Shown here piece after piece: positions 2,607 through 48,403 of a DNA stretch of 64,000 nucleotides. The notes under the pieces were generated by a model. It was not told the DNA's origin. It did not search any database and worked only from the letters and a program-made list of their open reading frames with translations. The stretch is taken from the UHGV virus genome UHGV-1366603; one strand, 5' to 3'. Numbering within the stretch: the first letter of the stretch is position 1; each line of letters begins with the position of its first letter. Both the position numbers and the translations under genes were made by a program. The stretch is from a virus.

Positions 2607-2613
2607 AAAAAGA

Positions 2614-2656
2614 AGTACCCTACTCCTTTTCGGGAGTAGGGTAGCTTTTTATTTTT
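2614..2656. terminator. bidirectional intrinsic terminator
   Basis: Hairpin TACCCTACTCC/GGAGTAGGGTA flanked by A-run upstream and T-run downstream, between convergent genes. Confidence 0.8.
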
Positions 2657-2657
2657 C

Positions 2658-5612
2658 TTAGTCTGCGGTGGTGTCGTGACGGTTGTAAACGATAACAACA
2701 TCGTCTTTCAGACCGATGTCACCGCTGGCTTCAATATCCAGTTTCTTACCAATCGTTGCGCGTGCAGCTTCGGATACCACAGTAAACAGACGCATGTCTT
2801 TGTCTGGCCCCATCGCATCCAACTCAACGCCGATAATCGACGTGTCAAGCGTTTCGCTGAGCTTATTACCAATCTCTGTTGCCGAGATAGTAAGATGTGA
2901 ACCCAAGTAGTCGTTGATAACTTGAGACGTTTTCTTACGAATCTGCGTTAACAGATCGCTGTTGCTACGGTTAGCCGCTGTGAGGTAATAACGAACGGTA
3001 AACTGGTTTTCAGCCGGTATCGGTGTAACCACCCCGTCTTCGGTACGCGCATCGATATAACCCATCGTGGTGATAGGAACGAAATACCCTTCCGTACGCT
3101 CTAACAACATCGGTTTTAACGTCGGTAGAACCACGGTCACGTAGTTAACGATATTCTCAATAACCGCGTTCAGATAGGATTTCGCAGACGCTGTGGTAGC
3201 GAATTTATAACGTGCGTCGAAGACTGCCATTTCACTACGGAACTTAATAGAACGTGATTTCGCAATCTTAGGATTACCGTACTCGTCTTTTACTAAGTCC
3301 CCTTCGCGGTGCAGGATAATCTGCTGGCCGGTTTCGTCAAGCTTAGGATCGCCTTTACGGTGTTCATAAGTGATTTGTAGCGGTGGTGTACGGCCTGCGT
3401 CGTACGTGTAAACCGGAACCCCATTCTCATCACGTTTCACCACGTCAATTTCCCACGTTGCTAATACGTCTTTGTCGTAATACTCGTAGTTGATGCTGTC
3501 AGTAACAGCACGAGCTTTACGCCAATAGTACGTCATCGCTTTACCCAGTTCGATTTTGAATATCTCGTGGGTAATACCGATAGCGTCACGAGAAGGCGCT
3601 GTGATTAACGTATCCATCTCTACACGTTCGTAGTTCCCAGGGTAATAACCTGTGCAACCGTAGAACAGGTTAAAATCTGTCAACAGAGGAACGGGTGTTT
3701 CCGTTGGGTTACTTCCGTTAATGCGCGTGTTGGTGAGTACCAGTTCGTCGTTACGGTCAACGTCCAGGTTAGTTTCCAGCAAGAACTCCCAAACACGTTC
3801 GCTGCCCTGCTTACCGACTAACGTACCGTTAATGTACGCCAAGGTGTTATCGGAATTACGAGGGCGGAAAGACAGCTGTGCAAAGACTTGGTCATCAGTC
3901 AGTGCCTGGTAAGGTGCTTCTGACTTCGTAACCGTACGCAACACATAACCTGCTTCCGTTTTCTCGATAGTGTAGTCAGCGGTAACGACGCTGAGCTCCG
4001 TCGAGACGTTGGTCGCAATAAAGCGTTTGGAGTTTAATAGCGGTTTATCCAACTGGTAAATACGCACGTCAATCGCTTTGTTGTTAATATCAACAACGTA
4101 ATGGAACGGTGTAAACAAATAACGGTTCGTGTTTGCTGCGTTAATCAGGTCTTCCTTACGCATGGTCTTCGCTAACACCGTCATTTCGGCATCTACAGTC
4201 AGACTGGTATCCGTAAAGCGATACAGCGTATCAGGAAGAATGGTCAGGCGATTACCGTTGACTTTCACTGTCGGAAGATTAACCAGCTCGTTCCAGGAGA
4301 AATAGAACGGGGCAGTAATCGTACCAATCGGTGAACTGACGTTAGCAATTGTCGATTCCAACATCGGTGCTGTCATGAAGTACGTACGACTGGTCACGTA
4401 GTCGTTAGGTTTAGACAACGTGAGACCGTAATCGGAAACCGTAGCTTCAAGCTGCTTTTCTGTCACAGGCAGTTTACGAGCACCTACGGCGTTGTTAACA
4501 ACGCGAGTACGTAAATCGCTGAACGAAAGCTGACTACGACCACCCGACAGCATCTTCCCAGCTTTTGCTGCAAGCTGTTTAATAGAGAACGCTTTAATCG
4601 GGTTGATATAGTTCGCGTCGTACTCTTCGTTTAAATCGCGTAGACTGAAACTATACTCATCAGACGGGTATGCAGAGATGTCCAGCTCCAACGGCCCTAA
4701 GGTCGTATAGACGTCCATCCTGATAGTCCCACTGACGAGATTCTTCGCCATGTAAATAGATGGAATCGTACAACGGATGTTACCGTTACCCACCTGAATC
4801 AATGCTGTTGGTGTGTTCGGGTCGTAAACATCGCGACTGTGGGTGTGCTGAATCTCTACCCACTTGTTGCTACCCGTTGCCTTCATCCAAACACGAACGT
4901 AGAAGAATTTGTTAGTGTAAGCACGGGTCATGACGAAAGTATTGTTACCTTCGACGGTGTTACTTTCTTCTTTCACCGCATACTGCATAACCGGGATATG
5001 AATAGCCAGCAGCTGTGACGACGTTGTGTTAGTGGACGTTAGTTCCCATTCCAGTGCGTTCGTGGAAACTGGTGAAATCGGTGATTGTGTTTCAGTAATC
5101 CACAGTACCTGGAAAGCCGGGTTCTCGTTCGTTCCGTATGGAAGTACACGGATTTCAATTGGATATTGAATAGCAAACGTGTAACCAGAAACCGTAAAGA
5201 CCGTGTCACGTGGGATAACGACTTTACGAACCCCCGCGATTTGCAACGGATACGCTTTCGAGATTAAGCTGTCAACGTCAATTAACAGTAACAGTTCTGT
5301 AGTAGCAGGCTGCGCAAAGACGTCAACGTAATCCACGTCTGACATGTGTCGGAACAGGTCATCGTACGTCTGTGCCATTGACGGGAACGTTTTAGGAATA
5401 GATTCCTGGAGCCCCATCAACGTCGCGTGCCCCATCATTGTTCCCATTTCTGCCAAATAAACGACAGGGTCGGTAGGGTCACGGAGATAAATCTGACCAT
5501 CGGCATCTTCAACATCTTGAAGCTGGTTTAGCAGCATTGTCTGCATCGCCGCAGGGTTGTGTGCGAACAGCAGAAGTTTCTTTGCCAAAGTATCGTAAGT
5601 TGTTGAACTCAT
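2658..5612 (-). CDS. hypothetical large protein (984 aa), probable structural protein
   Basis: Long minus-strand ORF; start overlaps stop of upstream minus gene at 5612. Confidence 0.8.
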   Translation of the reverse strand: MSSTTYDTLAKKLLLFAHNPAAMQTMLLNQLQDVEDADGQIYLRDPTDPVVYLAEMGTMMGHATLMGLQESIPKTFPSMAQTYDDLFRHMSDVDYVDVFAQPATTELLLLIDVDSLISKAYPLQIAGVRKVVIPRDTVFTVSGYTFAIQYPIEIRVLPYGTNENPAFQVLWITETQSPISPVSTNALEWELTSTNTTSSQLLAIHIPVMQYAVKEESNTVEGNNTFVMTRAYTNKFFYVRVWMKATGSNKWVEIQHTHSRDVYDPNTPTALIQVGNGNIRCTIPSIYMAKNLVSGTIRMDVYTTLGPLELDISAYPSDEYSFSLRDLNEEYDANYINPIKAFSIKQLAAKAGKMLSGGRSQLSFSDLRTRVVNNAVGARKLPVTEKQLEATVSDYGLTLSKPNDYVTSRTYFMTAPMLESTIANVSSPIGTITAPFYFSWNELVNLPTVKVNGNRLTILPDTLYRFTDTSLTVDAEMTVLAKTMRKEDLINAANTNRYLFTPFHYVVDINNKAIDVRIYQLDKPLLNSKRFIATNVSTELSVVTADYTIEKTEAGYVLRTVTKSEAPYQALTDDQVFAQLSFRPRNSDNTLAYINGTLVGKQGSERVWEFLLETNLDVDRNDELVLTNTRINGSNPTETPVPLLTDFNLFYGCTGYYPGNYERVEMDTLITAPSRDAIGITHEIFKIELGKAMTYYWRKARAVTDSINYEYYDKDVLATWEIDVVKRDENGVPVYTYDAGRTPPLQITYEHRKGDPKLDETGQQIILHREGDLVKDEYGNPKIAKSRSIKFRSEMAVFDARYKFATTASAKSYLNAVIENIVNYVTVVLPTLKPMLLERTEGYFVPITTMGYIDARTEDGVVTPIPAENQFTVRYYLTAANRSNSDLLTQIRKKTSQVINDYLGSHLTISATEIGNKLSETLDTSIIGVELDAMGPDKDMRLFTVVSEAARATIGKKLDIEASGDIGLKDDVVIVYNRHDTTAD

Positions 5613-6916
5613 CAGTTAGTACCTGCCTCTGTAACAAGACCATTGACGCTGTCAAGTAATCCTGCTTTCTTGAGAATATATTGATAGTCTGCTTGGTAGA
5701 CATACCAGGTAAGCTTGCGCCGTACGGAATCGATATGTGGATAGCCGTAATAGTTAAATAAAGGCAATAACTGTGGCGCGATAGGAACAAGTTGGCTGCT
5801 GGCCATCGGGATAAAATTCCCCGAAGCGACTGAGCCGGGCTGCGGGAGCATATCTGGGTTAAACATCCCAACAGTTTTATTGAACATCTCCATGTAAAGC
5901 GGATCGTTAAACCGTGCCCCGATTGCTTGCCAGTTGATGTTAATCGTCACGTCGTCATTTAACTGCGGCTTTGAGTTATCGACGTTCGCCATTTGACCCG
6001 CGTTATCGTTCATCGGCCAGGCTACACAAATTGTCCAGAAACGGGTAATGTTCCCTAACGCATCGTAACGTAGACCGTAGATACGTGACTGGTAATCAAT
6101 GCGTCGTTGAATGGAGTTGCGCATCTTCGGACGGAACTTACCCATCTTAATACCCGCCATATACTCCAACCACACACCCATCATTCTCATTAACGGGTCA
6201 CCGTAGGGGTTGTTTAGGGACATTGACACAGAGAACGCGTTGTTGATTTCGTGCGTAGAATCAACCATACCCCACTGTTCGCGCATCAAGCCTTCACTGG
6301 CCATCCAGTTATCGACGGACTGATCGGGTGTTCCGCTTAAACTGATCAGCTGCGTACTGAGTATTGGTATGAACGCTTGTAGATTATCGAATCTTACCTG
6401 CGGCATAAACGGAGTACCTAAGCGGTTTCTTCGTATCCCCGTTTTGCTCTCAACAGGTGAGTCCGAAAACCCTAATTCGAAATCAGGGTCGAGAGCAGCA
6501 AGTATCGAATAATCTAAAGAGTCCTTCGGCTGCAATGCCATGTTTGACATTTTACGCGACTTGGCAATGTTGTCGTAGCACAGGTTGAAATCGGGCCGGG
6601 TAATAAATGTTAGACCACCGTATTCTCGGTTGATTGGCGTGGGGTTAGACGCCATCATATGGTTGAACCCCATGTAGGGGTTGGTCAAACGCTGCGCAGC
6701 AAGACCCAAACCTACAGTAAGGCGGATACGATCGTTCCATGCCGTAAGTTCGGTGTTTGCATCGTAAGGTGTTGCCGGATTGTTGTTGCTGAGTCGGTTA
6801 TTAAAATACCCGGCAACAGAAGGCACCGCGTCCGCGTTATTCGGATTGTGGAGAGAATCGTCGTAATCAGTATTCGGGTCATACCCCGGATCGTTCTTAT
6901 CTGTCTCGTCACTCAT
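5612..6916 (-). CDS. hypothetical protein (434 aa)
   Basis: Minus-strand ORF, GGAG RBS in palindrome AACTCCGGAGTT upstream of start at 6916. Confidence 0.75.
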   Translation of the reverse strand: MSDETDKNDPGYDPNTDYDDSLHNPNNADAVPSVAGYFNNRLSNNNPATPYDANTELTAWNDRIRLTVGLGLAAQRLTNPYMGFNHMMASNPTPINREYGGLTFITRPDFNLCYDNIAKSRKMSNMALQPKDSLDYSILAALDPDFELGFSDSPVESKTGIRRNRLGTPFMPQVRFDNLQAFIPILSTQLISLSGTPDQSVDNWMASEGLMREQWGMVDSTHEINNAFSVSMSLNNPYGDPLMRMMGVWLEYMAGIKMGKFRPKMRNSIQRRIDYQSRIYGLRYDALGNITRFWTICVAWPMNDNAGQMANVDNSKPQLNDDVTININWQAIGARFNDPLYMEMFNKTVGMFNPDMLPQPGSVASGNFIPMASSQLVPIAPQLLPLFNYYGYPHIDSVRRKLTWYVYQADYQYILKKAGLLDSVNGLVTEAGTN

Positions 6917-6942
6917 CTTTAACTCCGGAGTTCATTAGGAAA

Positions 6943-8049
6943 ATGTTAGAAAAAACGTTTGAGACAAGCGTTGTCTCTTTCCTCTCCAGACTTCCCATGC
7001 TGTTTCGTTCGCGTGCGGAGTCGATGGAGGAATTTAACTCCGTGCTCTATAATGAGCACATTACCTTAGTCGAACAAAGCCTGCTGGGTTTAGATTACCT
7101 TCCGGGAATTCTGGAGAAAATCCAAGTTTTGCTGGCAGGAAACCAACTTACTGCAATCTCACTGTTAACGGGTGTGCCTGACGTTGATATTATCGGTACG
7201 CTGGATCAAGTAAGCACTCGTCGTAGCGCACTCGATAACGCAGTGCGGAGCGGCTCACGCTTAGCAGCACTGGCAGTCGGCGAATCTTCCCGCCTAGGAT
7301 TACCATCATACGATAAAATCGGCATTGCTGTGGGTGAATGCGCCCGCCGTGTCGCACAGGAATCCAAAGGTTCCGTTACCGGCGGTAAAGCAGACCCGAT
7401 TAAACAACTGTTCGATCAGGAAGGACTGTCTAACGGGAAAATGTTCTCTGTAACGTTTGAACGTGACGGTAATAAAGTCGAACTTCCAATGCGTTTACGT
7501 TTGGACGTTAAGTCCCTTCCGACCGACCAGATTGAAACTCTGATTGCATTCAGCGACCAGACGAAAACGTTCTGGGAACGTTGGCTGCGTGCACGTGTAG
7601 GTGCACTGAGCTACGTTAAAGACATTGCGTTTTGTAACGACCTGGTAGAAGAATACCGTAAGAACCGTTATCGCGATAAGTCAGGCTACTATCGTAAGAT
7701 GATGGAGAAGAAAAACGGTAACTGGCTGTCTGGCTTGCTGACGCTGGCACCGTCTATTAATAACGCTTCTTCTGTCATGGTGGTTTCTCAAGACACTATC
7801 GACGGTCTGACTGCCCAGCTAGGCGGTGAGTTTGACGATTTCAATATTCGTCAGCGTGTCTTTAAAGACACCTTAACCGTCTATTACGTGGTAGTGGATA
7901 CCGCGTGGAACCGCGTTACTATTTATACTCGCGGTCAGAACGGTTCTCAGGAACTTGATAAATCCGATTTCAGCAAAGCGAAGTCCGGTAGCGCCGATGT
8001 GAACAAAATCATTGAAGCGTATCGCTCTGGCGCACAGCCAGTTCTTTAA
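6943..8049 (+). CDS. hypothetical protein (368 aa)
   Basis: ORF diverging from 5612..6916 with 26-bp spacer. Confidence 0.75.
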   Translation: MLEKTFETSVVSFLSRLPMLFRSRAESMEEFNSVLYNEHITLVEQSLLGLDYLPGILEKIQVLLAGNQLTAISLLTGVPDVDIIGTLDQVSTRRSALDNAVRSGSRLAALAVGESSRLGLPSYDKIGIAVGECARRVAQESKGSVTGGKADPIKQLFDQEGLSNGKMFSVTFERDGNKVELPMRLRLDVKSLPTDQIETLIAFSDQTKTFWERWLRARVGALSYVKDIAFCNDLVEEYRKNRYRDKSGYYRKMMEKKNGNWLSGLLTLAPSINNASSVMVVSQDTIDGLTAQLGGEFDDFNIRQRVFKDTLTVYYVVVDTAWNRVTIYTRGQNGSQELDKSDFSKAKSGSADVNKIIEAYRSGAQPVL

Positions 8050-9012: not shown

Positions 9013-9573
9013 ATGTTTGAGCACGATAGTCCCGATTTTAATGTGGCTGTAGAGCGCATTAAAACCTATATGTCGATTTTATCAAAAAACCCAATCGACA
9101 CACACGATGACGAGCTTATTCACAAAACGCTGGAAGCGTGTGCGGTTGTATTACCGTACTTTCGTCTGTTAGCTGCTGACTCTGTGCAGCAGGTATTATA
9201 TGACGAATATCCGCAGGTCGGATTTACCTTTAATACGTTTTATAACGAAAGCGTAGCCTTCCTGCTTGATGGTAAACGACGCACTGTGACGTTAGGACAG
9301 TGGTCCGTATTGCTGTCGTCGTACATGAATGATGTTCGCAATACGAAGAACGTTGAACAGACGGGCTCATTGGGTGCACGTCTTCTTGCTGCTGCGTTTG
9401 GTCGCCGGGGTACTGTACGTAATATGGGTTCCGCTCACCAGTCTGTTGAGTGTAGCAAACGTCTTTTATCTTATGCAGACCATGAACTGCTGGCACGCTG
9501 GATGACACGCCCGAACGGGTTGTCCGACATGATCTCGTCGTTAGCAGTGTTTTTGAAAATCGCACGTCCCTAA
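9013..9573 (+). CDS. hypothetical protein (186 aa)
   Basis: ORF with TAGGAGAG RBS. Confidence 0.75.
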   Translation: MFEHDSPDFNVAVERIKTYMSILSKNPIDTHDDELIHKTLEACAVVLPYFRLLAADSVQQVLYDEYPQVGFTFNTFYNESVAFLLDGKRRTVTLGQWSVLLSSYMNDVRNTKNVEQTGSLGARLLAAAFGRRGTVRNMGSAHQSVECSKRLLSYADHELLARWMTRPNGLSDMISSLAVFLKIARP

Positions 9574-9604
9574 GGGGGCCCCTCATTCTAGGGGCGTGTA
9601 ATTG

Positions 9605-9616
9605 GGTTATATAACC
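9605..9616. promoter_or_regulatory. perfect 12-bp palindrome GGTTATATAACC upstream of highly expressed paralog gene (candidate promoter/operator)
   Basis: Read directly; sits 17 bp upstream of ATG 9633 between RBS and a GC hairpin. Confidence 0.3.
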
Positions 9617-12308: not shown

Positions 12309-12322
12309 GCATTAAAAATAAT

Positions 12323-12352
12323 CTCAGATAGATATTACCTTAGTGAGATTAC
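12323..12352 (+). promoter_or_regulatory. promoter-like motif copy 1 (CTCAGATAGATATTACCTTAGTGAGATTAC)
   Basis: 30-mer identical to 47177-47206; lies after terminator and 46 nt upstream of ATG. Confidence 0.55.
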
Positions 12353-18261: not shown

Positions 18262-19580
18262 TGTCGTTTGGTCGGTTACAGAACATAGCAAACGTGCACA
18301 TTGCACAAGCGGCGGGATTACCGGCCATCGAATACGTACCTATCATTACGGTACGTGGTACAGTTATCAGCGTATTTAAAACGTTGTCGATAATCCATGC
18401 CAGTAACTTCGCACAGGACTTAACGACCATCACCCATCTTACCGTGATGATACCGTTGAGCCAACAGCGTGTGTTAACGTCCTCCGCAGACGGGGATTTG
18501 TCCGTGAAGATCTTAATGCGGACGATGAACAAGAAAACCGTTGCGAAACTCGACTATCGGGGTATCGTCGTGAACAACCACGATCCCGATATGGAATCGC
18601 CCACGATGTTCTTAGGTGAGTCTGACCAGAAAGCGTTAGCGGTCGTCACCCTGGAACTGATGGACGAGTCAATGTGGTTCTTACGTTGCCGTCAGGTCGG
18701 TGGGATTTATCACGAGACAGATGGCCTTAGCGTTGTTCGTGCGCTGCTGGCAGATACGTTACCTACCGGTGATGCGCCAGAAGGTCAGTTGGTGGGCGTG
18801 GAATACGAGGAAGAGGAGCAACAACCGTATCGGGATATTTTGATTCCTGACTCGGAAAGTTTCCTGTCTGTGTTCGATTACCTTCAGAATCGTTACGGGG
18901 TTTATAGCCAAGGATTGGGGGTGTTCCTTTACAAACACCGTTGGTATATTTTCCAACCTTGGGACTCTAAGAAGTTTTCATCAGCGAAGAATAAGCTGGT
19001 GATTATAAACCTACCGAAAGAGAAAGCAGCGTATCTGAATAAGACCTGCCACATTGACGGTGATGTGATTTACCTGATTTGTGGGGGTGATGTCCACACC
19101 TTCGAAGATAAAGACTCCTTAGCGCTAAACCAAGGTACCGGTTATCGTGTGGGGTCTATCCGTGCGTTGGATGGTCGTGCGTCCTCGTTCTCGTCAGGCG
19201 ACGTTTCTGCTACAACGTCTGATTCGTTCGTCTCAGCGGCTGACCCGACGCAATATCCAGGCGGCGTAGTTAACGCACCAATTGACCCGAACCAACACTT
19301 CTCGGACACAGATAAACCGCAACGGTCTAAGTTAGCGGCGGCGAAAGGGACGTTAACCGCAACAACCTGGAACGCTTCAACGTATGGCTTACTCCGTCCG
19401 GGGATGGCAGTAAAATACATTTATGCGAATAACTATGGTGTATACACGCGTTACGGAACATTAGTTGCAGAAGTTTTCCAAGGTGCAATTGATGGCGGTT
19501 CAGCGGCTTCACCACGGTTTAATACCATTAGTCAGTTGACGTTGTGGCTGACTAATGAAAATTTTACATCCACAACGTAA
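18261..19580 (+). CDS. hypothetical protein (439 aa)
   Basis: TAATG junction, AGGGGAGG RBS. Confidence 0.8.
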   Translation: MSFGRLQNIANVHIAQAAGLPAIEYVPIITVRGTVISVFKTLSIIHASNFAQDLTTITHLTVMIPLSQQRVLTSSADGDLSVKILMRTMNKKTVAKLDYRGIVVNNHDPDMESPTMFLGESDQKALAVVTLELMDESMWFLRCRQVGGIYHETDGLSVVRALLADTLPTGDAPEGQLVGVEYEEEEQQPYRDILIPDSESFLSVFDYLQNRYGVYSQGLGVFLYKHRWYIFQPWDSKKFSSAKNKLVIINLPKEKAAYLNKTCHIDGDVIYLICGGDVHTFEDKDSLALNQGTGYRVGSIRALDGRASSFSSGDVSATTSDSFVSAADPTQYPGGVVNAPIDPNQHFSDTDKPQRSKLAAAKGTLTATTWNASTYGLLRPGMAVKYIYANNYGVYTRYGTLVAEVFQGAIDGGSAASPRFNTISQLTLWLTNENFTSTT

Positions 19581-19612
19581 GTTATGTCGACAGCAACCTA
19601 AAGGATTTGTTA

Positions 19613-20577: not shown

Positions 20578-20610
20578 TCAGATATATATTACTTAGGTGA
20601 GAGAATTACG
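20578..20610 (+). promoter_or_regulatory. promoter-like motif (TCAGATATATATTACTTAGGTGAGAGAATTACG)
   Basis: Variant of the 12323/47177 motif, contains TATATTAC and GTGAGA; 39 nt upstream of ATG 20650. Confidence 0.5.
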
Positions 20611-20649
20611 TAATACTCATTTATCGAATACCTAATTAGGAGCTATATC

Positions 20650-22361: not shown

Positions 22362-23924
22362 TCAAAAGAGTTCGTCTCCCATACCGCCTGTAAAGACGTT
22401 AATCGACGATGCAGTTACTGTTTCTTCTTTATCGCAATCCCAAGGCAGAATGCCAACTTCACGGAAAGGTATTACTGTATAATGGTAAGCTTCTTTAGTA
22501 TCGATAATTGTACGGTGTTTACCACGTTGTACTTCTAAGTAACTATGTCCATTGACAACACGTTTGTTAAAATACATCTCACCGTCAGCTTCGTTATCCA
22601 AGCTGGAGCAGTTATCGTAAAGACCGCGACCTGGTAAGTTCTTGCAGAAACTTGCTGGGTCTAACGCTTTTAATTTTTTGCCTTCTGGTGAGATTTGGTG
22701 TGGTGCTAACAAGAAACCACGGTTACGTACTACCTGGATGTTTCGAGCGATACGATAAATTTCTTTAATGTCGCTACCGGCAATCCCGTTACCGTGACCT
22801 GCTTTACTGATAGTCCCGAAATAGTCTCCGCGAATCCCAGCTACATGATAACCTCGACGCTTTAAGTCCAGTATTAAGTCGTTTAAGTAGTGTATTTTAA
22901 AATCTGAGTTTGTGTGTTTCTGAAAGATGTATTCCCAACCGTTAGCCCGCATTTTACTACAGAGGTAGTCCGACATTTTTGTGTTGTGCAAAGCTTTCTC
23001 TTCGTCGGTAGCGTTTTCAGAAGCAACCATAACCGGTGCTTCACCTTCAAAATGACCGTAGAGCGCTTGGTACGCATACGCCAAGTTAACGTCCAGTTCG
23101 TTCTCTAAACTTAAATCGAGAATAACCGGCTGCAAATCCCCTTTAACGTTTTCCATTACTTTTTCAGGTGTATTGAATACCGGAATACTGATAGACAATA
23201 ACAGACTAAAAAGTGATTTACAGTTAAAAGGCAGTGCAGGCATTAGCCAAAGTTCTTCGGTAATCCCTTTGTTACAACCCAGCATCTGGTTAATGGCTTT
23301 CCATCCGGTACGTAAACCGTTACCCGCCGCTTTCTTACTGATGGAGTCGAACACGTGTACGAACGGTGCACGGTTATCCGTAATAAGTTCGCCTACAAGT
23401 GAGGGAATCTTATTATGAGAGCGTTCACTGAACGTAGAGAGACTATCTCTGAGGTCGTTGAGCGCCGTTTGTAAATCAACGCGCGTTTCGGTTCCGTTCA
23501 GTGCGCCTAACGTACGACCTAATTTTTGTTTCAGTTGTACGCCTTGAATAGCTTGACGTAATTGGAAGTAGTATTGTGCTACTTGACGGTTAAGATGCTC
23601 GATGCGTGCTTCTGGTTCTTCTGGAATATCATCTTCCAGGAATTTGGTAATCGTATCGTATAGAGGACGTATTTGCGTAGTGGCCAATTTCAAACGTTTC
23701 ATGACGTTTGTGTGGTCGTAAGGCATACCGCCGTCTATGATGGATGTGATGATATCCTTGATTTCGACGAGGGCGGCACGTTCGTCACCTTCCTCTACGT
23801 AATCAGGAAGCTTAGCCTCTAACAGCACTTTTCTTATGACCTCATGATCCTTCTCAGGGTCGGTCAACAGACTTTCAGTGTATAGTGTGGCTAATGCGGT
23901 TATCAACATCATTTTGTTATTCAT
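22362..23924 (-). CDS. hypothetical protein (520 aa)
   Basis: Long minus-strand ORF; AAGGA RBS overlapping start of divergent gene 23938. Confidence 0.8.
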   Translation of the reverse strand: MNNKMMLITALATLYTESLLTDPEKDHEVIRKVLLEAKLPDYVEEGDERAALVEIKDIITSIIDGGMPYDHTNVMKRLKLATTQIRPLYDTITKFLEDDIPEEPEARIEHLNRQVAQYYFQLRQAIQGVQLKQKLGRTLGALNGTETRVDLQTALNDLRDSLSTFSERSHNKIPSLVGELITDNRAPFVHVFDSISKKAAGNGLRTGWKAINQMLGCNKGITEELWLMPALPFNCKSLFSLLLSISIPVFNTPEKVMENVKGDLQPVILDLSLENELDVNLAYAYQALYGHFEGEAPVMVASENATDEEKALHNTKMSDYLCSKMRANGWEYIFQKHTNSDFKIHYLNDLILDLKRRGYHVAGIRGDYFGTISKAGHGNGIAGSDIKEIYRIARNIQVVRNRGFLLAPHQISPEGKKLKALDPASFCKNLPGRGLYDNCSSLDNEADGEMYFNKRVVNGHSYLEVQRGKHRTIIDTKEAYHYTVIPFREVGILPWDCDKEETVTASSINVFTGGMGDELF

Positions 23925-23937
23925 GGAGCATCCTTAA

Positions 23938-24462
23938 ATGCAAATTCGTTTTAGTCCACCGTGGGAAGTTCAGCCTAACATAGATAAAGGCGCTGCCGTT
24001 AAAAGTGTAGAATTGCTCCAGGCAGGGTTCTTTAACTGGTTATATGACTGTCCGAATGGTTTCAGTTCTATCATTATACCTGAAGTAAGTCGTTCTGCTA
24101 TTTATAAAGCGTTGATGGCTCCGCCTGTGCTTCCAGGTAAATATTATGATCAGGTGTTACGTCTGGTCGAATCAGGCGAAAAGGTTTCCCTTGACGATTT
24201 ATATGGGGAAACAATTCCTTGTCGCTTACGCTGGGTCTTTACCCAACGTGGTGATACGATTGTGGCGTCATTTGCAGAAGCGAAGTCCGGTTCGGGTTTT
24301 TCTTCGGGTGAAGACCACGCTGCGAAAAAGATGTTCTGCGCAGAACTTTTTAAATATATGCGTACCAAGACTCGCGTCGTGGATGACTGCTTCAGTACCT
24401 CAACGCAGTTTGCCGCTAACGAAGTGCTGACGCAATTATACGCATGTCATTTATCTCATTAA
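23938..24462 (+). CDS. hypothetical protein (174 aa)
   Basis: ORF with GGAG RBS, 13 bp from divergent gene start. Confidence 0.75.
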   Translation: MQIRFSPPWEVQPNIDKGAAVKSVELLQAGFFNWLYDCPNGFSSIIIPEVSRSAIYKALMAPPVLPGKYYDQVLRLVESGEKVSLDDLYGETIPCRLRWVFTQRGDTIVASFAEAKSGSGFSSGEDHAAKKMFCAELFKYMRTKTRVVDDCFSTSTQFAANEVLTQLYACHLSH

Positions 24463-26816: not shown

Positions 26817-26831
26817 TTTCTATTATTTTTT

Positions 26832-26856
26832 GGATAGATATTATCAAAGGGAGACT
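26832..26856 (+). promoter_or_regulatory. promoter-like motif (GGATAGATATTATCAAAGGGAGACT)
   Basis: Resembles AGATAGATATTAC core of other copies; after terminator. Confidence 0.4.
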
Positions 26857-26943
26857 GTCAGTTGGTTTAAAGGAGACTTTATGGAAAAATTACAGTTAAA
26901 ACTAAAGATATGTACCATTATTAAAACTTAATCTGGCCCCTAC

Positions 26944-32071: not shown

Positions 32072-32077
32072 AAAAAA

Positions 32078-32133: not shown

Positions 32134-32138
32134 GCTAT

Positions 32139-34856
32139 TTAGAGAGTTTCATCGGTGTTTTCGTCTGTACCGGTATCCGTCTCGTCCGTGCCTTCAGTTG
32201 AAACGTCTTCTTCCGTTGTCGTATCGGTTTCTGTCGTTTCATCATCGGTCATGTCCAAGTCTTCATCACCGCCCAGATCGTCACCACCTAAGTCCTCATC
32301 GCCTCCTAAGCCACCGTCATCTTCAGTGCCGCCACCAAAGTCGCTACCACCGCCGAAGTTATTGGCGTCTTCAGGATTCAGATCGGCTGCTTTTGCTAAC
32401 GTCTGAACTTTACCTGTCGCACGTTTTGCTAACTGAATCAGCGTCTTCGATGCCGCTGCAATTTCATCAGAAATCATCTTGACGTTTTCACCACGTTTAT
32501 CTTCATCGTAGATCAAATCAAACAGATCGGTTTCGATGCCCTGATTACGTAGCCAGTTGCGCGCGTAGAAGGTCTTAACCATCGTCTTGAGGTCATCAGG
32601 TGACATTTCAATACCTTCGTTCTGAAGCATATTAGCAATGTCATCCGTGACCACCAGATCTGCAAGTTTCTCGATAAATTCATAGCGTTTATCGAAGAGA
32701 TCAGCTTGAGATGCTGTTGCAGAAGTATCGGGCGGCGGCAAGGTGACCTTCATACCGTTGATAAACTTCGCCATATACTCTGACGTTTGTTTTGTCATCT
32801 CTTCGCTAGTTACATTCGGATTCTGCTCACGGATATACTCAACGATAATACGGATGAGTTCTGCTTGCAGTTTCGGTGAAGCTTGCAGACTGTTTGTAAC
32901 GTAGCGCGTAAGCGGGGTTGAGAGAATTTCCTGTTTCTTCACAATCTGTTGAGTAACCAACAGCGATTTAGAATAAATCTGAGAAGCAAACTCCAGGTTC
33001 TCCGGGGTAAGTACAAGGTCAGGATCAACACACGCGATGTGACATGTACGGCGTAACAGGTTCTCGTCGATTTGTTGATCAGGAACTTTATACTCCGGCG
33101 TGGTATCAGACACAGACACTTTGTGGCTGGCGTAGTAATCGTTACCCGTTACGTTAAAGGCAATCCCCGCATTAGCCCCCATTGACCAGGCGTCGTTGAT
33201 ATCGCCCCACATCGGCAGACGTCGATTGTAGGAGTTAAGGATATCTGATTTAACTTGGTCAACGGTTTTCTGACCGTTTGCATCATCTGGTGACAGCTCA
33301 ATGTCATACTGCATGTGACGTGCCGAGTTCAGTACAGATGAGTTCATCGTTGCGAACAGCAGCGCCATCCTGACAGTAGAGATAATAAAGGAGCGTTCAG
33401 TAATAGAAACCCCGATACCGTCCTCGTTAAAGTCCGTTGCAAAATAGCATAGGTTATTAACCGGAATGTAAACCACCTGAGTATGACGTTTTGCGAGATG
33501 ACGCGCCAACAGAATACGACCGAATGTTTCGGTAATATTCATGCTGATTTCTGCGCCACCTAGTGCCTGACTTAATGCGCGAGCAAATTCGTTTTCAGCG
33601 ATTTCACCACAACGTGCACTTAAACGGTTGGCGATTTCCGGGGTAATACGAGAAGTGTTCCCTAAGCCCAGATTAGAACGGTTAATGATGCTGTCCGTCA
33701 TCCCGTCGTTATTCAGGTAGTTCATAAAGTTCGCATCGCCGTACAGCGAGGAGCGAGCATTGATGAAGTTACCCATGTCATCTACGATGGTCAGATAACC
33801 AATAGGGTTACGAACGTCATCGCCAATTACCAGTGGCAGCGTTGACTCTGCGGGCAGTAAACGTTCGATGTATTCGATTTTGTTATTCTCATCCATTGAG
33901 ATAATAGGAATATCACCGTACGTTTGTGTTTTCGGTGTTGACTTATACGCCTCGTTTAAATCGCCCAAGTTAATGAACCCTTTTTCAGCAGCGTCACGCT
34001 GACGGTCATCGAAAGATTGGTTAGGGTCGAACGGACTGCCACCGTTTGGTGTAGACGGCTTTTCATATGCGGCTTGCTCTAATTGCCCGTACAATCCCGT
34101 ACGTGCGTTCTCATGCGCGATACGACGATACAAATCCGGCAGCATGGTAATGCGTGGGTTATCGGTAATCGTGATTTCCATCTGGAATTTATCCGAGAAC
34201 ATCGAATCATGCTTACCGAAATCGATTTTCAACGTTTGAGGACCAGTAACGGCTCCGTGTAAACGGTTGAGAATTGATTCTACACCAACTCGCTGCCCTT
34301 CTTTCGGCGCATTAATAGGCCCGAGAATACCAAGCTGTTGTTCGAAGAACGCCGTTTGAGAACGACGAACAGATTCAGTAGCGACCTTTGTATTCAGGCC
34401 GAATAATTGGTCGAAGCCGGTATCCGAGATTATCATCACTGGACTTGCGCCTTTGGTTTTTAACGCATCGTAAATCCACTGATATAATTTCTTAGGTAGC
34501 TGACGAATGTTATCGTGATAATCACGGGTCGGTGTCAGTAGCGCGTTACGCAGATCAATGGGGATGTCCGCGATGTTGTCGTAAATCAACGTCGTGTTGA
34601 TTAAGTCTTTTGTTGATAGCAGGCTCGAAGTTGCAATAGTAACGATTGTTTCGAGTTCAGGTAACGCATCAAAGATACGTTCCGCATTTTTGATAGTACG
34701 AATACGTGAACTCGCAATTGCCGTGAGTTCTTGACGTGTTGGCGTAGAACCACCCTCGCTACGCGTACCGCGTTGTTGCTGAGGTGCTGGGCCCGTAGTT
34801 TTACGAAGAATTGCAGCTACGGCGGGGTCGCCCGTTAATTTACTAATATCGTCCAT
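32139..34856 (-). CDS. large protein (905 aa) with Gly/Asp/Glu/Thr-rich acidic C-terminal tail; candidate portal or other head protein
   Basis: Long minus ORF; C-terminus GGGSDFGGGTEDDGGLGGDEDLGGDDLGGDEDL…TDETDTGTDENTDETL; GGAG RBS. Confidence 0.8.
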   Translation of the reverse strand: MDDISKLTGDPAVAAILRKTTGPAPQQQRGTRSEGGSTPTRQELTAIASSRIRTIKNAERIFDALPELETIVTIATSSLLSTKDLINTTLIYDNIADIPIDLRNALLTPTRDYHDNIRQLPKKLYQWIYDALKTKGASPVMIISDTGFDQLFGLNTKVATESVRRSQTAFFEQQLGILGPINAPKEGQRVGVESILNRLHGAVTGPQTLKIDFGKHDSMFSDKFQMEITITDNPRITMLPDLYRRIAHENARTGLYGQLEQAAYEKPSTPNGGSPFDPNQSFDDRQRDAAEKGFINLGDLNEAYKSTPKTQTYGDIPIISMDENNKIEYIERLLPAESTLPLVIGDDVRNPIGYLTIVDDMGNFINARSSLYGDANFMNYLNNDGMTDSIINRSNLGLGNTSRITPEIANRLSARCGEIAENEFARALSQALGGAEISMNITETFGRILLARHLAKRHTQVVYIPVNNLCYFATDFNEDGIGVSITERSFIISTVRMALLFATMNSSVLNSARHMQYDIELSPDDANGQKTVDQVKSDILNSYNRRLPMWGDINDAWSMGANAGIAFNVTGNDYYASHKVSVSDTTPEYKVPDQQIDENLLRRTCHIACVDPDLVLTPENLEFASQIYSKSLLVTQQIVKKQEILSTPLTRYVTNSLQASPKLQAELIRIIVEYIREQNPNVTSEEMTKQTSEYMAKFINGMKVTLPPPDTSATASQADLFDKRYEFIEKLADLVVTDDIANMLQNEGIEMSPDDLKTMVKTFYARNWLRNQGIETDLFDLIYDEDKRGENVKMISDEIAAASKTLIQLAKRATGKVQTLAKAADLNPEDANNFGGGSDFGGGTEDDGGLGGDEDLGGDDLGGDEDLDMTDDETTETDTTTEEDVSTEGTDETDTGTDENTDETL

Positions 34857-34867
34857 TGGGGTCTCCG

Positions 34868-37051
34868 ATGCAGAGATTTAACATATTTCGTGAACAGAAC
34901 ATCGCGTTGGCGAAATCACTGATTATTAAATCAGAATCAATCGCACAACAGATGAATCTGGCAATAACCGAGAACGGCGGTTTCGTTTCCGATAACCGAA
35001 GTACGTGGCGATACTACCTGCATTTAGCAGGACAACGTCACGAATGGGATAAGCCCATTTACATAACGTCGCTCGACACGCAAGAGCAGATAGAATTAAC
35101 GACAGCCAACCTGTCCCGTCATAAAAAGACCTCAAACGTATTTCGTTCGAACGGCGAGTACATTGAGGAGCTGATCAGAACGTATCCTGACTACGCGATT
35201 TATATCCGAGGTGTGTTTAATCCGGTGGATATAAACTACGCCATCCGTGTGGCCGACTGCTCTATCCTCTATTACGACAGTTCATTAGTGGAGTCGCAAG
35301 AGACGTCGCTGATGTCGAGATTGGAAGACAGAATAAGGGCAGCTCATGTTCGCTATATGTCAGAAGGGTGGAAAGTTCACAACGATGCGTTCGTGTTAGC
35401 GTTCTACTGTATTCTGTATCCGCAGCTACCCGGCATTATTGGTTACATCCGTTCTTCTTTACAGCATACCACGGAAACGCATTCGTTTTACGTGACAGAG
35501 TTCTTAGCATCACACCAAGAACTTCACGAGTTTATGCCTTATCTGACCCAGAAACAGAAATTCATTCTGTATCGGAATATTCGTTACTGGGAGCGTAACT
35601 CAGGGAAAGAGGAGATTTTCGACTGGCAGATTGATGCGCTACTGACAGGTTGGGGGATGCCTGCGGTTGGGTATAATGTTGCGCAACAGATACACGAACC
35701 GAAGGATGATGACGATTCCACGTTAACACCGTTACCGATTGGTTATCAGCAATCGCTTAACTATACGGAAAAGGATTCTGGTCGAGACCTTGACATTGTA
35801 ACGACGACGGACATTATCCAGAAGGAAGTCGCGTTAGCGTACAATAACCCGGCGTACGAACCGGAGTATCAGGAAGACTTAGATACCCGTTTAAGTTTAA
35901 CGCAATACCCTAACCTGAAAACCAAACTCATTGAAGTTACAGCAGTCGACCCAGAGGCGATTGAGCGCTTCGAGTATCTGCATAACCTCTTTAACGAATG
36001 GGTACATCTCGTCGCGAAAGGGAAATACAACATTTACCACGAGATTCTTAACCCAACAAACGGGGATACCTTAAAGCTTAGCTCAAAAGAGTTATTGGCG
36101 CTGTTCTTGTACGCGGCGTATAAAGGGTATTCTGACGTTGCGTTAGAAGAGATTCCTGTGTTCAACGTATTCGGGGTGTTAATCAAACGCTGGGTTCCAT
36201 TCGACGAAATGGAACAACATTTAATCCCGAGCTGGGAAAACCGTTTCGATGCGTTGATTAACTATTATACCGATACGCACACAGAAGTCGTCGGAACGAT
36301 TCTCAGTGCTGACGAACTCTACGACACGGTTAATGAAATCATTACCCAGAAACGTCGTCGTTGGCGTTATAGCCAAAACCGTCGGAAGATTCCTGACCGC
36401 GCTGCGGGCTTGATGCTGTTTAACTACCATTATCGTGATTATCGTTGCGATTTAAAACTGAACTACCGTAACTACGATGAGTTCTTTAAAACGTTTGGGT
36501 TAGATTATACGTTGGTTTCTGCGGAGACGTGGCAAGACATTGCTATTGACGCGTTTAACACCGCAACTAACCTCGAAACCCGCGCAACGATTTCACAGTC
36601 TGAGATTCAGCGTGCGATGGTACGACTGATGACGAAGCTGTCATCCTACACCGTACATTTTGCTGCACGAATGGGGTCAGATTCTTACGACGTTATGGAC
36701 CCGCTCTGTCCTATCTTAGGGGATATCCCTATGAGTGGGGAGGGGTCGGTTACCATTATTGAACCCCTCTTAGGCGTACAGCAAGTTACGCGTCACCAGT
36801 ATATGTCCACCGACACTGTGTTACCGGCAGCGCCTGTTATTAAAGAACTGTCGATGCCGCAGCACATCAAACTCAGGATGAACATTTACATGGGCATCCG
36901 AGTGAAAGTAACACAGCAGGTTGTGGTGGATATTAACGAGCCGACTACCGGGGTTGTTAAAGTGAAATCTTCGCTTGACGATTGGACGTTAAACGAACAG
37001 GTGAAAATTAACGATCTGGACGGCTTCACGCTTGACCAGCTACCTAAGTGA
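34868..37051 (+). CDS. hypothetical large protein (727 aa)
   Basis: Start set at ATG 34868 (track uses TTG 34856); diverges 11 bp from 905-aa gene start. Confidence 0.8.
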   Translation: MQRFNIFREQNIALAKSLIIKSESIAQQMNLAITENGGFVSDNRSTWRYYLHLAGQRHEWDKPIYITSLDTQEQIELTTANLSRHKKTSNVFRSNGEYIEELIRTYPDYAIYIRGVFNPVDINYAIRVADCSILYYDSSLVESQETSLMSRLEDRIRAAHVRYMSEGWKVHNDAFVLAFYCILYPQLPGIIGYIRSSLQHTTETHSFYVTEFLASHQELHEFMPYLTQKQKFILYRNIRYWERNSGKEEIFDWQIDALLTGWGMPAVGYNVAQQIHEPKDDDDSTLTPLPIGYQQSLNYTEKDSGRDLDIVTTTDIIQKEVALAYNNPAYEPEYQEDLDTRLSLTQYPNLKTKLIEVTAVDPEAIERFEYLHNLFNEWVHLVAKGKYNIYHEILNPTNGDTLKLSSKELLALFLYAAYKGYSDVALEEIPVFNVFGVLIKRWVPFDEMEQHLIPSWENRFDALINYYTDTHTEVVGTILSADELYDTVNEIITQKRRRWRYSQNRRKIPDRAAGLMLFNYHYRDYRCDLKLNYRNYDEFFKTFGLDYTLVSAETWQDIAIDAFNTATNLETRATISQSEIQRAMVRLMTKLSSYTVHFAARMGSDSYDVMDPLCPILGDIPMSGEGSVTIIEPLLGVQQVTRHQYMSTDTVLPAAPVIKELSMPQHIKLRMNIYMGIRVKVTQQVVVDINEPTTGVVKVKSSLDDWTLNEQVKINDLDGFTLDQLPK

Positions 37052-39735: not shown

Positions 39736-39743
39736 ACAATTTT

Positions 39744-48358: not shown

Positions 48359-48403
48359 CAACTTTTTCTTTTGTTGTGAGGAAAGCCGATAAGGAGTATT
48401 AAA

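What the first reader, a model, noticed from the sequence alone, without database searches (positions are those of the whole stretch)
6917..6942. Tight divergent gene pairs with start codons 11-26 bp apart and a palindromic shared SD
Three minus/plus gene pairs diverge with almost no intergenic space: 6916/6943, 23924/23938 and 34856/34868. In the first, the 12-bp palindrome AACTCCGGAGTT offers GGAG to both strands. Promoters for each gene must therefore lie inside the neighbour's coding sequence, implying compact promoters or read-in from distant ones.
Basis: seen in the sequence. Interest (0 to 1): 0.4.

Follow-up and report, generated by a model that had tools for sequence, protein, structure and literature searches.

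The report
Divergent jumbo-phage genes with embedded promoters
In a phiKZ-like giant phage, three pairs of back-to-back genes leave room between them only for their two ribosome-binding sites, and comparison with related phages indicates that their tiny TATG-type promoters sit inside each other's coding sequences: a conserved but fairly ordinary consequence of this family's four-base promoters.

Summary
Three minus/plus gene pairs start 26, 13 and 11 nt apart, and AACTCCGGAGTT lies at 6921-6932. The window is an uncultivated SPN3US-like (phiKZ-related) jumbo phage. The three pairs are orthologous to phiKZ gp88/gp89, gp118 (helicase)/gp119 and gp129/gp128. All 10 isolates compared, from at least five genera, keep them tight.

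The gaps hold only two Shine-Dalgarno (SD) sites: abutting at junction 1, which makes the palindrome, and crossing at junctions 2 and 3. The core ACTCCGGAGT is invariant in 11/11 genomes. A 12-bp palindrome is not rare in itself (18 found, 15.6 expected), it forms no stable RNA fold, and GGAGT is a common SD form here.

The promoters appear to be embedded in the neighbour's coding sequence. CATA, the reverse complement of TATG (the phiKZ non-virion RNA polymerase start motif), is the most conserved of all 256 four-letter words in the six junction genes (8 of 16 sites invariant against a 3% baseline). It is never conserved in 21 control genes. TATG is also depleted in coding DNA and enriched 21-60 nt upstream of starts. 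The helicase site also carries a TTAC element. The predicted start sites face each other, so the leaders would overlap by 142-1052 nt. No transcript data exist, so the start sites are inferred.

The parts
5612..6916 (-). Gene A, virion structural protein (phrog_3196), homologue of phiKZ gp88. Hosts plus-strand TATG sites on its antisense strand.
   Evidence: 27% identity over 365 aa to phiKZ gp88
6917..6942 (.). Junction 1 gap of 26 nt. Palindrome AACTCCGGAGTT at 6921-6932 = CTCC (SD of gene A, read on the minus strand, 6 nt from its ATG) abutting GGAG (SD of gene B, 12 nt from its ATG).
6943..8049 (+). Gene B, virion structural protein (phrog_3239), homologue of phiKZ gp89, first gene of a long plus-strand head-gene operon.
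6658..6661 (+). Conserved TATG inside gene A (antisense). Candidate start site (G 6661) for gene B, 282 nt upstream of its ATG.
   Evidence: invariant in 11/11 genomes and in 10 further IMG/VR contigs. Coincides with a synonymous-conservation peak (bin 9 of A = 0.79).
6368..6371 (+). Second conserved antisense TATG inside gene A (G 6371, 572 nt upstream of gene B).
   Evidence: invariant in the 9 genomes aligned
7307..7310 (-). Conserved TATG on the minus strand inside gene B (G at 7307). Candidate start site for gene A, 391 nt upstream of its ATG. Context TTTTATCG-TATG-A.
   Evidence: Coincides with the synonymous-conservation peak in bin 13 of B (0.73).
22362..23924 (-). Gene C, DnaB-like replicative helicase (phrog_3213), homologue of phiKZ gp118.
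23925..23937 (.). Junction 2 gap of 13 nt, GGAGCATCCTTAA. GGAG is the SD of gene D (9 nt from its ATG). TCCTT is AAGGA, the SD of the helicase (6 nt from its ATG). The two SD sites cross.
23938..24462 (+). Gene D (phrog_8266), in the position of phiKZ gp119 (head protein) directly upstream of the major capsid gene 24475-26760.
   Evidence: Assigned to gp119 by synteny only; no BLAST match.
23835..23838 (+). Conserved TATG inside the helicase gene (antisense), context ACTTTTCT-TATG-AC. Candidate late start site (G 23838) for the D-capsid operon, 100 nt upstream of D. Positional counterpart of phiKZ P119L.
   Evidence: second-longest invariant run of the helicase gene
23414..23417 (+). Second conserved antisense TATG inside the helicase gene (G 23417, 521 nt upstream of D), within the longest invariant run of that gene (GGAATCTTATTATGA).
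23979..24002 (-). Candidate helicase promoter inside gene D codons 14-22, minus strand: TTAAC (24002-23998), 15-nt spacer, TATG (23982-23979). G 23979 is the predicted +1, 55 nt upstream of the helicase ATG.
   Evidence: the only minus-strand PWM hit of score 8 or more in 64 kb. Conserved 11/11, with exact TTTTAC-N15-TATG in EarlPhillipIV and CR5.
32139..34856 (-). Gene E, virion structural protein (phrog_3004), homologue of phiKZ gp129.
34857..34867 (.). Junction 3 gap of 11 nt, TGGGGTCTCCG. GGGG is the SD-like site of gene F. CTCC is GGAG, the SD of gene E (6 nt from its ATG). The two sites cross.
34868..37051 (+). Gene F (phrog_3222), homologue of phiKZ gp128.
   Evidence: 29% identity over 629 aa
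35120..35123 (-). Conserved minus-strand TATG inside gene F (G 35120), context GGTCTTTT-TATG-AC. Candidate start site for gene E, 264 nt upstream.
34066..34069 (+). Conserved antisense TATG inside gene E (G 34069). The only conserved candidate for gene F, 799 nt upstream. The weakest assignment.
   Evidence: invariant in the 10 genomes aligned

Best explanation
The three junctions are ancient back-to-back translation-start regions of a phiKZ-related jumbo phage. The DNA between the start codons carries nothing but the two Shine-Dalgarno sites, one per strand. At junction 1 the two GGAGT sites abut, which necessarily makes the palindrome ACTCC|GGAGT. At junctions 2 and 3 they cross.

Transcription signals are not in the gap. 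Each gene is transcribed by the phage's own non-virion RNA polymerase from a very small promoter of the phiKZ type: a TATG start-site motif, plus for the helicase an upstream TTAC element about 19 nt before the start. These promoters are written on the antisense strand of the neighbour's coding sequence, 55-799 nt upstream of the start codon. The promoters of each pair therefore face each other, and the two mRNAs carry complementary 5' leaders (predicted overlaps 647, 142 and 1052 nt).

Shown here: the gene layout, its conservation, the SD content of the gaps, and purifying selection on antisense TATG in these genes only. Inferred: that these TATGs are the transcription start sites of the neighbouring genes, and that they are used by the non-virion polymerase.
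For: 1. Layout and homology. The three tight pairs are present in 11/11 genomes of Seoulvirus, Erskinevirus, Machinavirus, Wellingtonvirus and Derbicusvirus. The orthologous pairs in phiKZ are gp88/89 (39-nt gap), gp118/119 and gp128/129 (35-nt gap), and in 201phi2-1 gp150/151 (36-nt gap).

2. The gaps are SD sites. Each strand has GGAG, AAGGA or GGGG 5-12 nt before its ATG. GGAGT is the form in 8 of 21 GGAG-bearing genes.

3. The polymerase and its promoter are known in the family. The phiKZ non-virion RNA polymerase initiates at T(-3)ATG(+1), a 4-base consensus bound by the beta-like subunit gp123 (PMC4666361, PMC12809450). P119L drives the gene syntenic with gene D. The window encodes the gp123 homologue at 27965-29740.

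4. TATG behaves as a signal here. It is depleted in coding DNA against a codon shuffle that keeps proteins and codon usage: sense 151 vs 246 (z = -9.1), antisense 49 vs 95 (z = -5.7). It is enriched 2.6-fold at 21-60 nt upstream of starts (16 vs about 6 expected). It is conserved at orthologous intergenic promoters while the spacers diverge.

5. Antisense TATG is under selection only in the six junction genes. Eight of 16 sites are invariant in all aligned genomes against a 3% baseline for any 4-mer (binomial 7e-9). Among all 256 4-mers, CATA ranks first by a factor of two. None of 11 sites is invariant in 21 control genes (about 19 kb). All eight point toward the neighbour and lie in the 5' 42-790 nt of the host gene. 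Several coincide with local peaks of synonymous conservation.

6. These ATGs do not open conserved ORFs (1-87 codons, mostly 3-30).

7. Helicase promoter. TTAC-N15-TRTG gives 9 hits against 4.6 expected, all on the plus strand, 7 of them in or at intergenic regions. A PWM built from these gives a single minus-strand hit in 64 kb, 55 nt upstream of the helicase ATG.

8. The two J1 TATG sites are also kept in the further IMG/VR contigs that cover them: each in 10 of 11 contigs, the eleventh being cut short on that side.
Against: There is no transcript or TSS data for any SPN3US-like phage (paper searches).

Four of the six predicted leaders (264-799 nt) are far longer than the 21-60 nt that TATG positions suggest for ordinary genes in this window. 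Gene F has no conserved TATG nearer than 799 nt.

Only about 6 of 16 phiKZ gp123 pocket residues are kept in a 21%-identity alignment (F151, H331, Q466, R155, R156->K and Y406->F/W). The recognised word need not be exactly TATG.

The conserved sites could drive antisense regulatory RNAs rather than the neighbour's mRNA.

Excess synonymous conservation in the first ~10 codons of minus genes A and E (z = 2.7 and 3.4) is not explained by the TATG sites. It hints at further elements close to the plus genes.
Confidence: 0.6

Rival explanations
1. The palindrome ACTCCGGAGT is an operator: a binding site for a dimeric protein (transcriptional or translational regulator) that controls both genes of pair 1 together, in addition to or instead of serving as SD sites.
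For: The 10-bp core is invariant in 11/11 genomes, including positions +/-5 (A...T), which do not pair with the anti-SD. Position +/-6 changes symmetrically (A..T to T..A) in the Machina-like clade, extending the palindrome to 16 bp.
Against: GGAGT is a common SD form here. T-rich left and A-rich right flanks are expected from two A-rich SD-to-ATG spacers on opposite strands. The symmetric change is a single evolutionary event. The motif occurs only once per 44-64 kb. Junctions 2 and 3, and the orthologous phiKZ and 201phi2-1 junctions, have two separated SD sites and no palindrome. The consensus RNA fold is negligible (-0.67 kcal/mol).
Confidence: 0.1
2. The plus-strand genes (B, D, F) are mainly transcribed from proximal promoters. 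An upstream element would lie in the first ~10 codons of the minus gene and the start site in or next to the gap, giving very short leaders. The distant TATG sites would be secondary.
For: The first 10 codons of A and E have the highest synonymous conservation of their genes (0.81-0.84 against a mean of about 0.5; rank 1/43 and 1/93). The helicase is rank 2-6 of 52. The first codons of B and F are not raised, and 21 other genes mostly lie between z = -1.1 and 1.2. These stretches contain TTTACT or GTTACT, resembling the -24 TTAC element.
Against: TTAC is not kept in Wellington, EarlPhillipIV and CR5 at junction 3, and is TCAC in the window at junction 1. No TRTG follows at the right spacing. 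The PWM gives no hit of 8 or more there in any genome. TTAC followed by GGRG is not enriched (8-9 hits against 7 expected).
Confidence: 0.2
3. The conserved CATA/TATG words are a by-product of protein coding (conserved residues, Ile-ATA codons) or mark the start codons of small overlapping antisense genes. They are not promoters.
For: All sites lie in coding sequence. One of them (ATG at 6659) opens an 87-codon ORF in the window.
Against: The same word is never conserved in 21 control genes of equal or higher conservation (0/11 against 8/16). The sites fall in different reading frames and peptide contexts. The ORFs opened are 1-87 codons and not conserved in length or sequence. The ATG word alone does not explain it, because sense-strand TATG is conserved only at background rate in the same genes (2/28).
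Confidence: 0.05
4. The genes have no nearby promoter of their own. They are read into from far-upstream promoters or from pervasive antisense transcription across the neighbouring operon.
For: Gene F's only conserved candidate is 799 nt away. phiKZ-type promoters are hard to recognise, so absence of a motif proves little (PMC7598289).
Against: Antisense TATG is 3-fold depleted in the plus-strand operons, which argues against tolerated antisense initiation there. Conserved candidates exist within 55-391 nt for five of the six genes.
Confidence: 0.1

Closest known systems
phiKZ late promoter P119L and the gp118 (helicase) / gp119 / gp120 (capsid) locus
   Same: Same synteny: helicase on one strand, small head-protein gene, major capsid gene, then ... 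gp123 on the other strand. Same polymerase family. A TATG start-site motif drives the gene 119 position (PMC4666361, PMC7618050, PMC12809450).
   Different: In phiKZ the two start codons are 139-211 nt apart and P119L lies in that intergenic DNA, back to back with an AAAATTAC middle-type element for the helicase (my reading of the sequence). Here the gap is 13 nt, and both candidate promoters are inside coding sequence and face each other.
phiKZ gp88/gp89 and gp128/gp129, and 201phi2-1 gp150/gp151 divergent pairs
   Same: Orthologous genes and the same tight divergent layout (39, 35 and 36 nt), with one SD per strand in the gap.
   Different: In those phages the SD sites are separated by an AT-rich spacer and form no palindrome. 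In phiKZ a TATG for gp88 lies in the gap and one for gp89 lies about 30 nt inside gp88 (my reading, not checked against published TSS tables).
phiKZ middle promoters (AAanTTACc centred near -24)
   Same: The TTAC-N15-TRTG class found here has an A/T-rich TTTTAC element whose C lies 19 nt before the start-site G. The helicase, a replication gene, carries this type.
   Different: Here the upstream element is coupled to a conserved TRTG at the start. Timing and the polymerase form that uses it are unknown.
Excludons and other overlapping divergent transcription units in bacteria (Listeria; from my own knowledge: Sesto et al. 2013, Nat Rev Microbiol)
   Same: Divergent genes whose long 5' leaders are antisense to the neighbour, so that expression of one can depress the other.
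   Different: No evidence here of mutual exclusion. The polymerase is viral and transcription takes place in a phage nucleus. The overlap is predicted, not observed.
Face-to-face promoters with transcriptional interference (coliphage 186 pR/pL; from my own knowledge)
   Same: Two promoters that fire toward each other across a short shared region.
   Different: Those use the host sigma-70 polymerase and lie in intergenic DNA. Here the promoters are 4-base motifs inside coding sequence.

Membership tests
phiKZ-type late promoter of the non-virion RNA polymerase (nvRNAP) | The phage encodes the multisubunit non-virion RNA polymerase, including the beta-like subunit gp123 that binds the motif | tested here: met
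   Window 27965-29740 aligns end to end with phiKZ gp123 (21% identity; 48 invariant columns across 6 phages) in the same syntenic position.
phiKZ-type late promoter of the non-virion RNA polymerase (nvRNAP) | TATG with the G as the transcription start | not testable with these tools
   Needs 5'-end mapping. No RNA data for this clade in the literature searched.
phiKZ-type late promoter of the non-virion RNA polymerase (nvRNAP) | All four bases are required (single substitutions abolish activity in phiKZ) | tested here: met
   Proxy only. All four bases are invariant at 8 sites in 9-11 genomes of at least 5 genera, against a 3% baseline.
phiKZ-type late promoter of the non-virion RNA polymerase (nvRNAP) | Residues of the gp123 pocket that contact T-3, A-2, T-1 and G+1 are conserved | tested here: inconclusive
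   F151, H331, Q466, R155, R156->K and Y406->F/W are kept. S144, K158, H185, N186, K190, S334, N398 and Y399 are not; S330 and S402 are kept only in part of the relatives. The alignment is only 21% identical.
phiKZ-type late promoter of the non-virion RNA polymerase (nvRNAP) | The motif behaves as a genome-wide signal: avoided where not wanted, enriched upstream of genes | tested here: met
   Codon-shuffle z = -9.1 (sense) and -5.7 (antisense). 2.6-fold enrichment at -21 to -60.
phiKZ-type middle promoter (-24 TTAC element) | A/T-rich TTAC element about 24 nt upstream of the start | tested here: met
   For the helicase only: TTAAC-N15-TATG in the window, exact TTTTAC-N15-TATG in EarlPhillipIV and CR5. 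It is the only minus-strand PWM hit in 64 kb. Not met at the other five genes.
Palindromic operator bound by a dimeric regulator | An inverted repeat that recurs at co-regulated genes, or a cognate regulator encoded nearby | tested here: not met
   One copy per 44-64 kb. The other two junctions and the phiKZ and 201phi2-1 orthologues lack a palindrome. No regulator was looked for.
Structured RNA element at the junction | A stable conserved fold with covariation | tested here: not met
   Only a 4-bp hairpin, consensus energy -0.67 kcal/mol. No Rfam family in the window.
Excludon-like overlapping divergent transcription units | Experimentally observed long 5' leaders antisense to the neighbour, with reciprocal expression | not testable with these tools
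   Overlaps of 647, 142 and 1052 nt are predicted from the candidate start sites. No expression data.

The most novel reading that the evidence does not exclude
The face-to-face promoters embedded in each other's genes form a conserved built-in switch. Transcription from one side runs over the opposing promoter and produces a leader fully complementary (142-1052 nt) to the other mRNA's 5' end. Under this reading, the onset of late capsid-operon transcription from 23838(+) would shut off the middle-type helicase promoter at 23979(-). The structural pairs A/B and E/F would be balanced by collision or antisense pairing. The excess synonymous conservation of the first ~10 codons of the minus genes would belong to this control region.
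Probability: 0.2. Interest if true: 0.6.

Novelty: new member of a known kind. Interest (0 to 1): 0.4.

Why it matters
Reviews state that middle and late promoters of jumbo phages that encode their own RNA polymerases cannot be predicted from sequence (PMC7598289). In this clade, comparison of about ten genomes plus a codon-shuffle test does expose them, in three ways. TATG is avoided in coding DNA. It is conserved only where an antisense start is needed. A TTAC-N15-TRTG class is conserved at intergenic sites.

That gives specific, testable start sites for replication and capsid genes of SPN3US-like phages, which are used as genetic models and are candidates for Salmonella and Erwinia control. 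It also shows that three tight divergent pairs are family-wide features, from phiKZ to SPN3US. Whoever maps transcripts in this family should expect promoters inside coding sequence and overlapping antisense leaders.

The palindrome itself is of little consequence.

Tried and rejected
1. Sigma-70-type promoters around junctions 1 and 2: 2 hits each against 1.3 and 2.2 expected, nothing above chance. The host polymerase is not expected to be used anyway.

2. k-mer enrichment in intergenic DNA: dominated by terminator T-runs and SD sites, and TATG is not enriched there overall.

3. TTAC followed 13-16 nt later by GGRG, as a short-leader promoter class: 8-9 hits against 7 expected, only one next to a start. 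Rejected.

4. RNA structure at junction 1 on either strand: only the trivial 4-bp hairpin.

5. Antisense small ORFs starting at the conserved ATGs: not conserved.

6. A near-junction TATG for gene E at -26 (window 34882): present in only 3 of 11 genomes. Rejected.

7. Homology of gene D to phiKZ gp119 by tblastn: no hit outside the SPN3US-like clade. The assignment rests on synteny.

8. Published TSS tables for phiKZ and 201phi2-1: supplements not held, and Ceyssens 2014 not held.

9. Rfam scan of the window: no family.

The large protein databases, structure prediction and fold search were not used, because the question did not need them.

Full report
**What the window is.** The DNA around the finding matches SPN3US-like jumbo phages at about 76% nucleotide identity (Salmonella SPN3US, Erwinia phiEaH2/Stratton, Asesino, Machina, Wellington, EarlPhillipIV, Cronobacter CR5 and others). 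It has 88-99% relatives only among uncultivated IMG/VR contigs of 221-225 kb. Gene order is collinear with SPN3US. SPN3US belongs to the phiKZ-related phages that carry a virion RNA polymerase and a non-virion RNA polymerase (PMC7598289).

**The observation.** The ORF list and the sequence confirm three divergent pairs:

| Pair | Minus gene | Plus gene | Gap |
|---|---|---|---|
| 1 | 5612-6916 | 6943-8049 | 26 nt |
| 2 | 22362-23924 | 23938-24462 | 13 nt |
| 3 | 32139-34856 | 34868-37051 | 11 nt |

. They are the only divergent junctions in the 64 kb. AACTCCGGAGTT is at 6921-6932. A 12-bp perfect palindrome is not unusual in itself: 18 are found against 15.6 expected.

**What the genes are.**
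- Pair 1 is two virion structural proteins, homologous to phiKZ gp88 and gp89.
- Pair 2 is the DnaB-like helicase (phiKZ gp118) and a small gene in the position of phiKZ gp119, directly upstream of the major capsid gene.
- Pair 3 is homologous to phiKZ gp129 and gp128.

All ten annotated relatives, from five genera, keep the three pairs, with gaps of 21-29, 11-14 and 11-15 nt. In phiKZ the corresponding gaps are 39 nt, 211 nt as annotated (139 nt if the helicase starts at the upstream ATG that I read) and 35 nt. In 201phi2-1 the first pair has a 36-nt gap. The tight divergent layout is therefore an old family trait, not a peculiarity of this window.

**What is in the gaps.** Each gap holds one SD per strand at a normal distance from its ATG.
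- Junction 2, GGAG-CAT-CCTT: GGAG serves the plus gene (9 nt) and AAGGA the helicase (6 nt).
- Junction 3, GGGG-T-CTCC: the two sites cross in the same way.
- Junction 1: the two sites abut as ACTCC|GGAGT, which is by construction a palindrome.

The 10-bp core is invariant in 11/11 genomes that were chosen by BLAST rather than by the motif, while the rest of the gap varies. It occurs once per locus.

GGAGT is the form of 8 of 21 GGAG-type SD sites in the window. Gene B's 12-nt spacing is the longest of the 21, so sharing costs it something. The symmetric A..T to T..A change in the Machina-like clade, and the T-rich and A-rich flanks, are what two A-rich SD-to-ATG spacers on opposite strands would give. 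The consensus RNA fold is a 4-bp hairpin of -0.67 kcal/mol. phiKZ and 201phi2-1 have two separated SD sites at the same junction and no palindrome. I therefore read the palindrome as two abutting ribosome-binding sites. An extra operator role cannot be excluded but has nothing specific in its favour.

**Where the promoters are: background.** Since both genes of each pair have an SD, their mRNAs must begin inside the neighbour's coding sequence. In phiKZ the non-virion polymerase starts late transcripts at T(-3)ATG(+1). This four-base word is necessary but not sufficient, and is bound in a pocket of the beta-like subunit gp123. P119L, the promoter of gene 119, is the standard example (PMC4666361, PMC7618050, PMC12809450). 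Middle promoters have AAanTTACc near -24 (PMC4666361). The window encodes the gp123 homologue at 27965-29740. About six of the sixteen pocket residues are conserved in a 21%-identity alignment, which is inconclusive.

**Three independent indications that TATG is a signal in this phage.**
1. Against 200 codon shuffles that keep every protein and each gene's codon usage, TATG is depleted on the sense strand (151 vs 246, z = -9.1) and on the antisense strand (49 vs 95, z = -5.7). This exceeds the deviation of any of twelve other words tested.
2. TATG is 2.6-fold enriched 21-60 nt upstream of start codons (16 vs about 6 expected).
3. At orthologous intergenic regions, a TTAC element and a T[A/G]TG 15 nt downstream are kept across genera while the spacer diverges. 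TTAC-N15-TRTG gives 9 hits in the window against 4.6 expected. All are on the gene strand and 7 lie in or at intergenic regions.

**The key result.** I built codon alignments for 27 genes across 9-11 genomes and asked where an antisense TATG (sense CATA) is invariant.
- It is invariant at eight sites, all in the six genes that flank the three junctions (A: 2, B: 1, helicase: 2, D: 1, E: 1, F: 1).
- It is invariant at none of 11 sites in the 21 other genes.
- In the junction genes 8 of 16 CATA sites are invariant, against 3.0% of all 4-nt windows (binomial 7e-9).
- Of all 256 four-letter words CATA ranks first. The next is ATGG at 23%.

Every site points toward the divergent neighbour. The predicted +1 G positions are:

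| +1 G (strand) | Host gene | Target gene | Distance upstream of target ATG |
|---|---|---|---|
| 6661 (+) | A | B | 282 nt |
| 6371 (+) | A | B | 572 nt |
| 7307 (-) | B | A | 391 nt |
| 23838 (+) | helicase | D-capsid operon | 100 nt |
| 23417 (+) | helicase | D-capsid operon | 521 nt |
| 23979 (-) | D | helicase | 55 nt |
| 35120 (-) | F | E | 264 nt |
| 34069 (+) | E | F | 799 nt |

. Six of the eight have a T-rich stretch just upstream (for example ACTTTTCT-TATG-AC and TTTTATCG-TATG-A). Several sites fall on local peaks of synonymous-site conservation. The ATGs inside these words do not open conserved reading frames. The two J1 sites are also present, in the same context, in the further IMG/VR contigs that extend far enough: 10 of 11 for each site. 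Those contigs were found through the palindrome, so they are informative only for the TATGs.

**The helicase site.** It has more than a TATG. It reads TTAAC-N15-TATG in the window and TTTTAC-N15-TATG in EarlPhillipIV and CR5. A weight matrix trained on the plus-strand TTAC-N15-TRTG instances gives exactly one minus-strand hit of score 8 or more in the whole 64 kb. That hit lies 55 nt upstream of the helicase ATG, inside codons 14-22 of gene D. This fits a middle-type promoter for a replication gene. In phiKZ I read a comparable AAAATTAC element for the helicase in the intergenic region.

**Consequence.** If these are the start sites, the promoters of each pair face each other. The two transcripts would overlap by 647 nt (junction 1), 142 nt (junction 2) and 1052 nt (junction 3), giving complementary leaders. 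Whether this is used for regulation (interference, or antisense pairing as in bacterial excludons) is open. I rate it about 0.2.

**What does not fit.**
- Leaders of 264-799 nt are long compared with the 21-60 nt typical here.
- Gene F has no nearer conserved TATG.
- The first ~10 codons of minus genes A and E, and less so the helicase, show the strongest synonymous conservation of their genes (z = 2.7, 3.4 and 1.3). The first codons of plus genes B and F do not, and other genes rarely do.

That asymmetric footprint lies directly upstream of the plus genes. It may be a proximal promoter element or a leader constraint. TTTACT and GTTACT occur there, but they are not conserved in all genera and no start motif follows. 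I leave it unexplained.

**Verdict.** The palindrome is two fused ribosome-binding sites. This is a new member of a known kind: phiKZ-type promoters and family-wide divergent pairs, here squeezed so that the promoters are embedded and face each other. Interest is moderate. The start sites need RNA data.

Noticed in passing
window 9563-9605: A strong hairpin (15 pairs, consensus -21.7 kcal/mol), CGCACGTCCCTAAGGGGGCCCC...TAGGGGCGTG, spans the stop codon of gene 9013-9573, just upstream of the internal head protein gene at 9633. It is almost identical in 8 genomes of 5 genera while the flanks vary. No T-run follows and there is no Rfam match.
   Followed up: partly
window 24333-24355 (inside gene D): A 23-nt stretch is invariant in all 11 genomes, the longest such run in the six junction genes. 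It contains the 14-bp palindrome GTTCTGCGCAGAAC followed by TTTTTAAAT, about 120 nt before the major capsid gene. Gene D also has fully conserved sense-strand TATGs (alignment positions 211 and 268), which may be internal promoters for the capsid gene.
   Followed up: partly
window 6961-6977: The hairpin GAGACAAGCGTTGTCTC lies in codons 7-12 of gene B and is flagged as terminator-like on both strands. On the minus strand it is followed by a U-run about 25 nt before gene A's SD. One stem pair shows compensatory changes across relatives.
   Followed up: partly
window about 12320-12345, 20595-20625, 26825-26850, 47170-47200, 52215-52245: A recurrent AT-rich motif, (C)AGATAGATATTAC followed about 9 nt later by GTGAGA, sits just after terminators. 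It resembles the phiKZ early (virion polymerase) promoter TATATTAC.
   Followed up: no
window 19564-19586, 26890-26912, 39734-39756, 46427-46449, 48356-48378, 51102-51124, 51795-51817: Bipartite promoter-like class A/T-rich-TTTAC(A/G)-N14-T(A/G)TG, conserved at orthologous positions in relatives with diverged spacers. The 19564 instance overlaps the 3' end of the upstream gene.
   Followed up: yes
whole window, coding regions: TATG is strongly under-represented on both strands of coding DNA relative to a codon shuffle (z = -9.1 and -5.7). On the plus strand it occurs 161 times against 66 on the minus strand.
   Followed up: yes
window 2607-2657 and 32072-32138: Hairpins flanked by an A-run on one side and a T-run on the other look like bidirectional terminators. 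They close the short minus-strand units and the incoming plus-strand operons.
   Followed up: no
L031, L056, L044 (97.6-99% identity), L029, L020 (88-89% identity): The window's closest relatives are uncultivated IMG/VR contigs of 221-225 kb. No cultured phage in the INPHARED set is closer than about 77% at this locus.
   Followed up: partly
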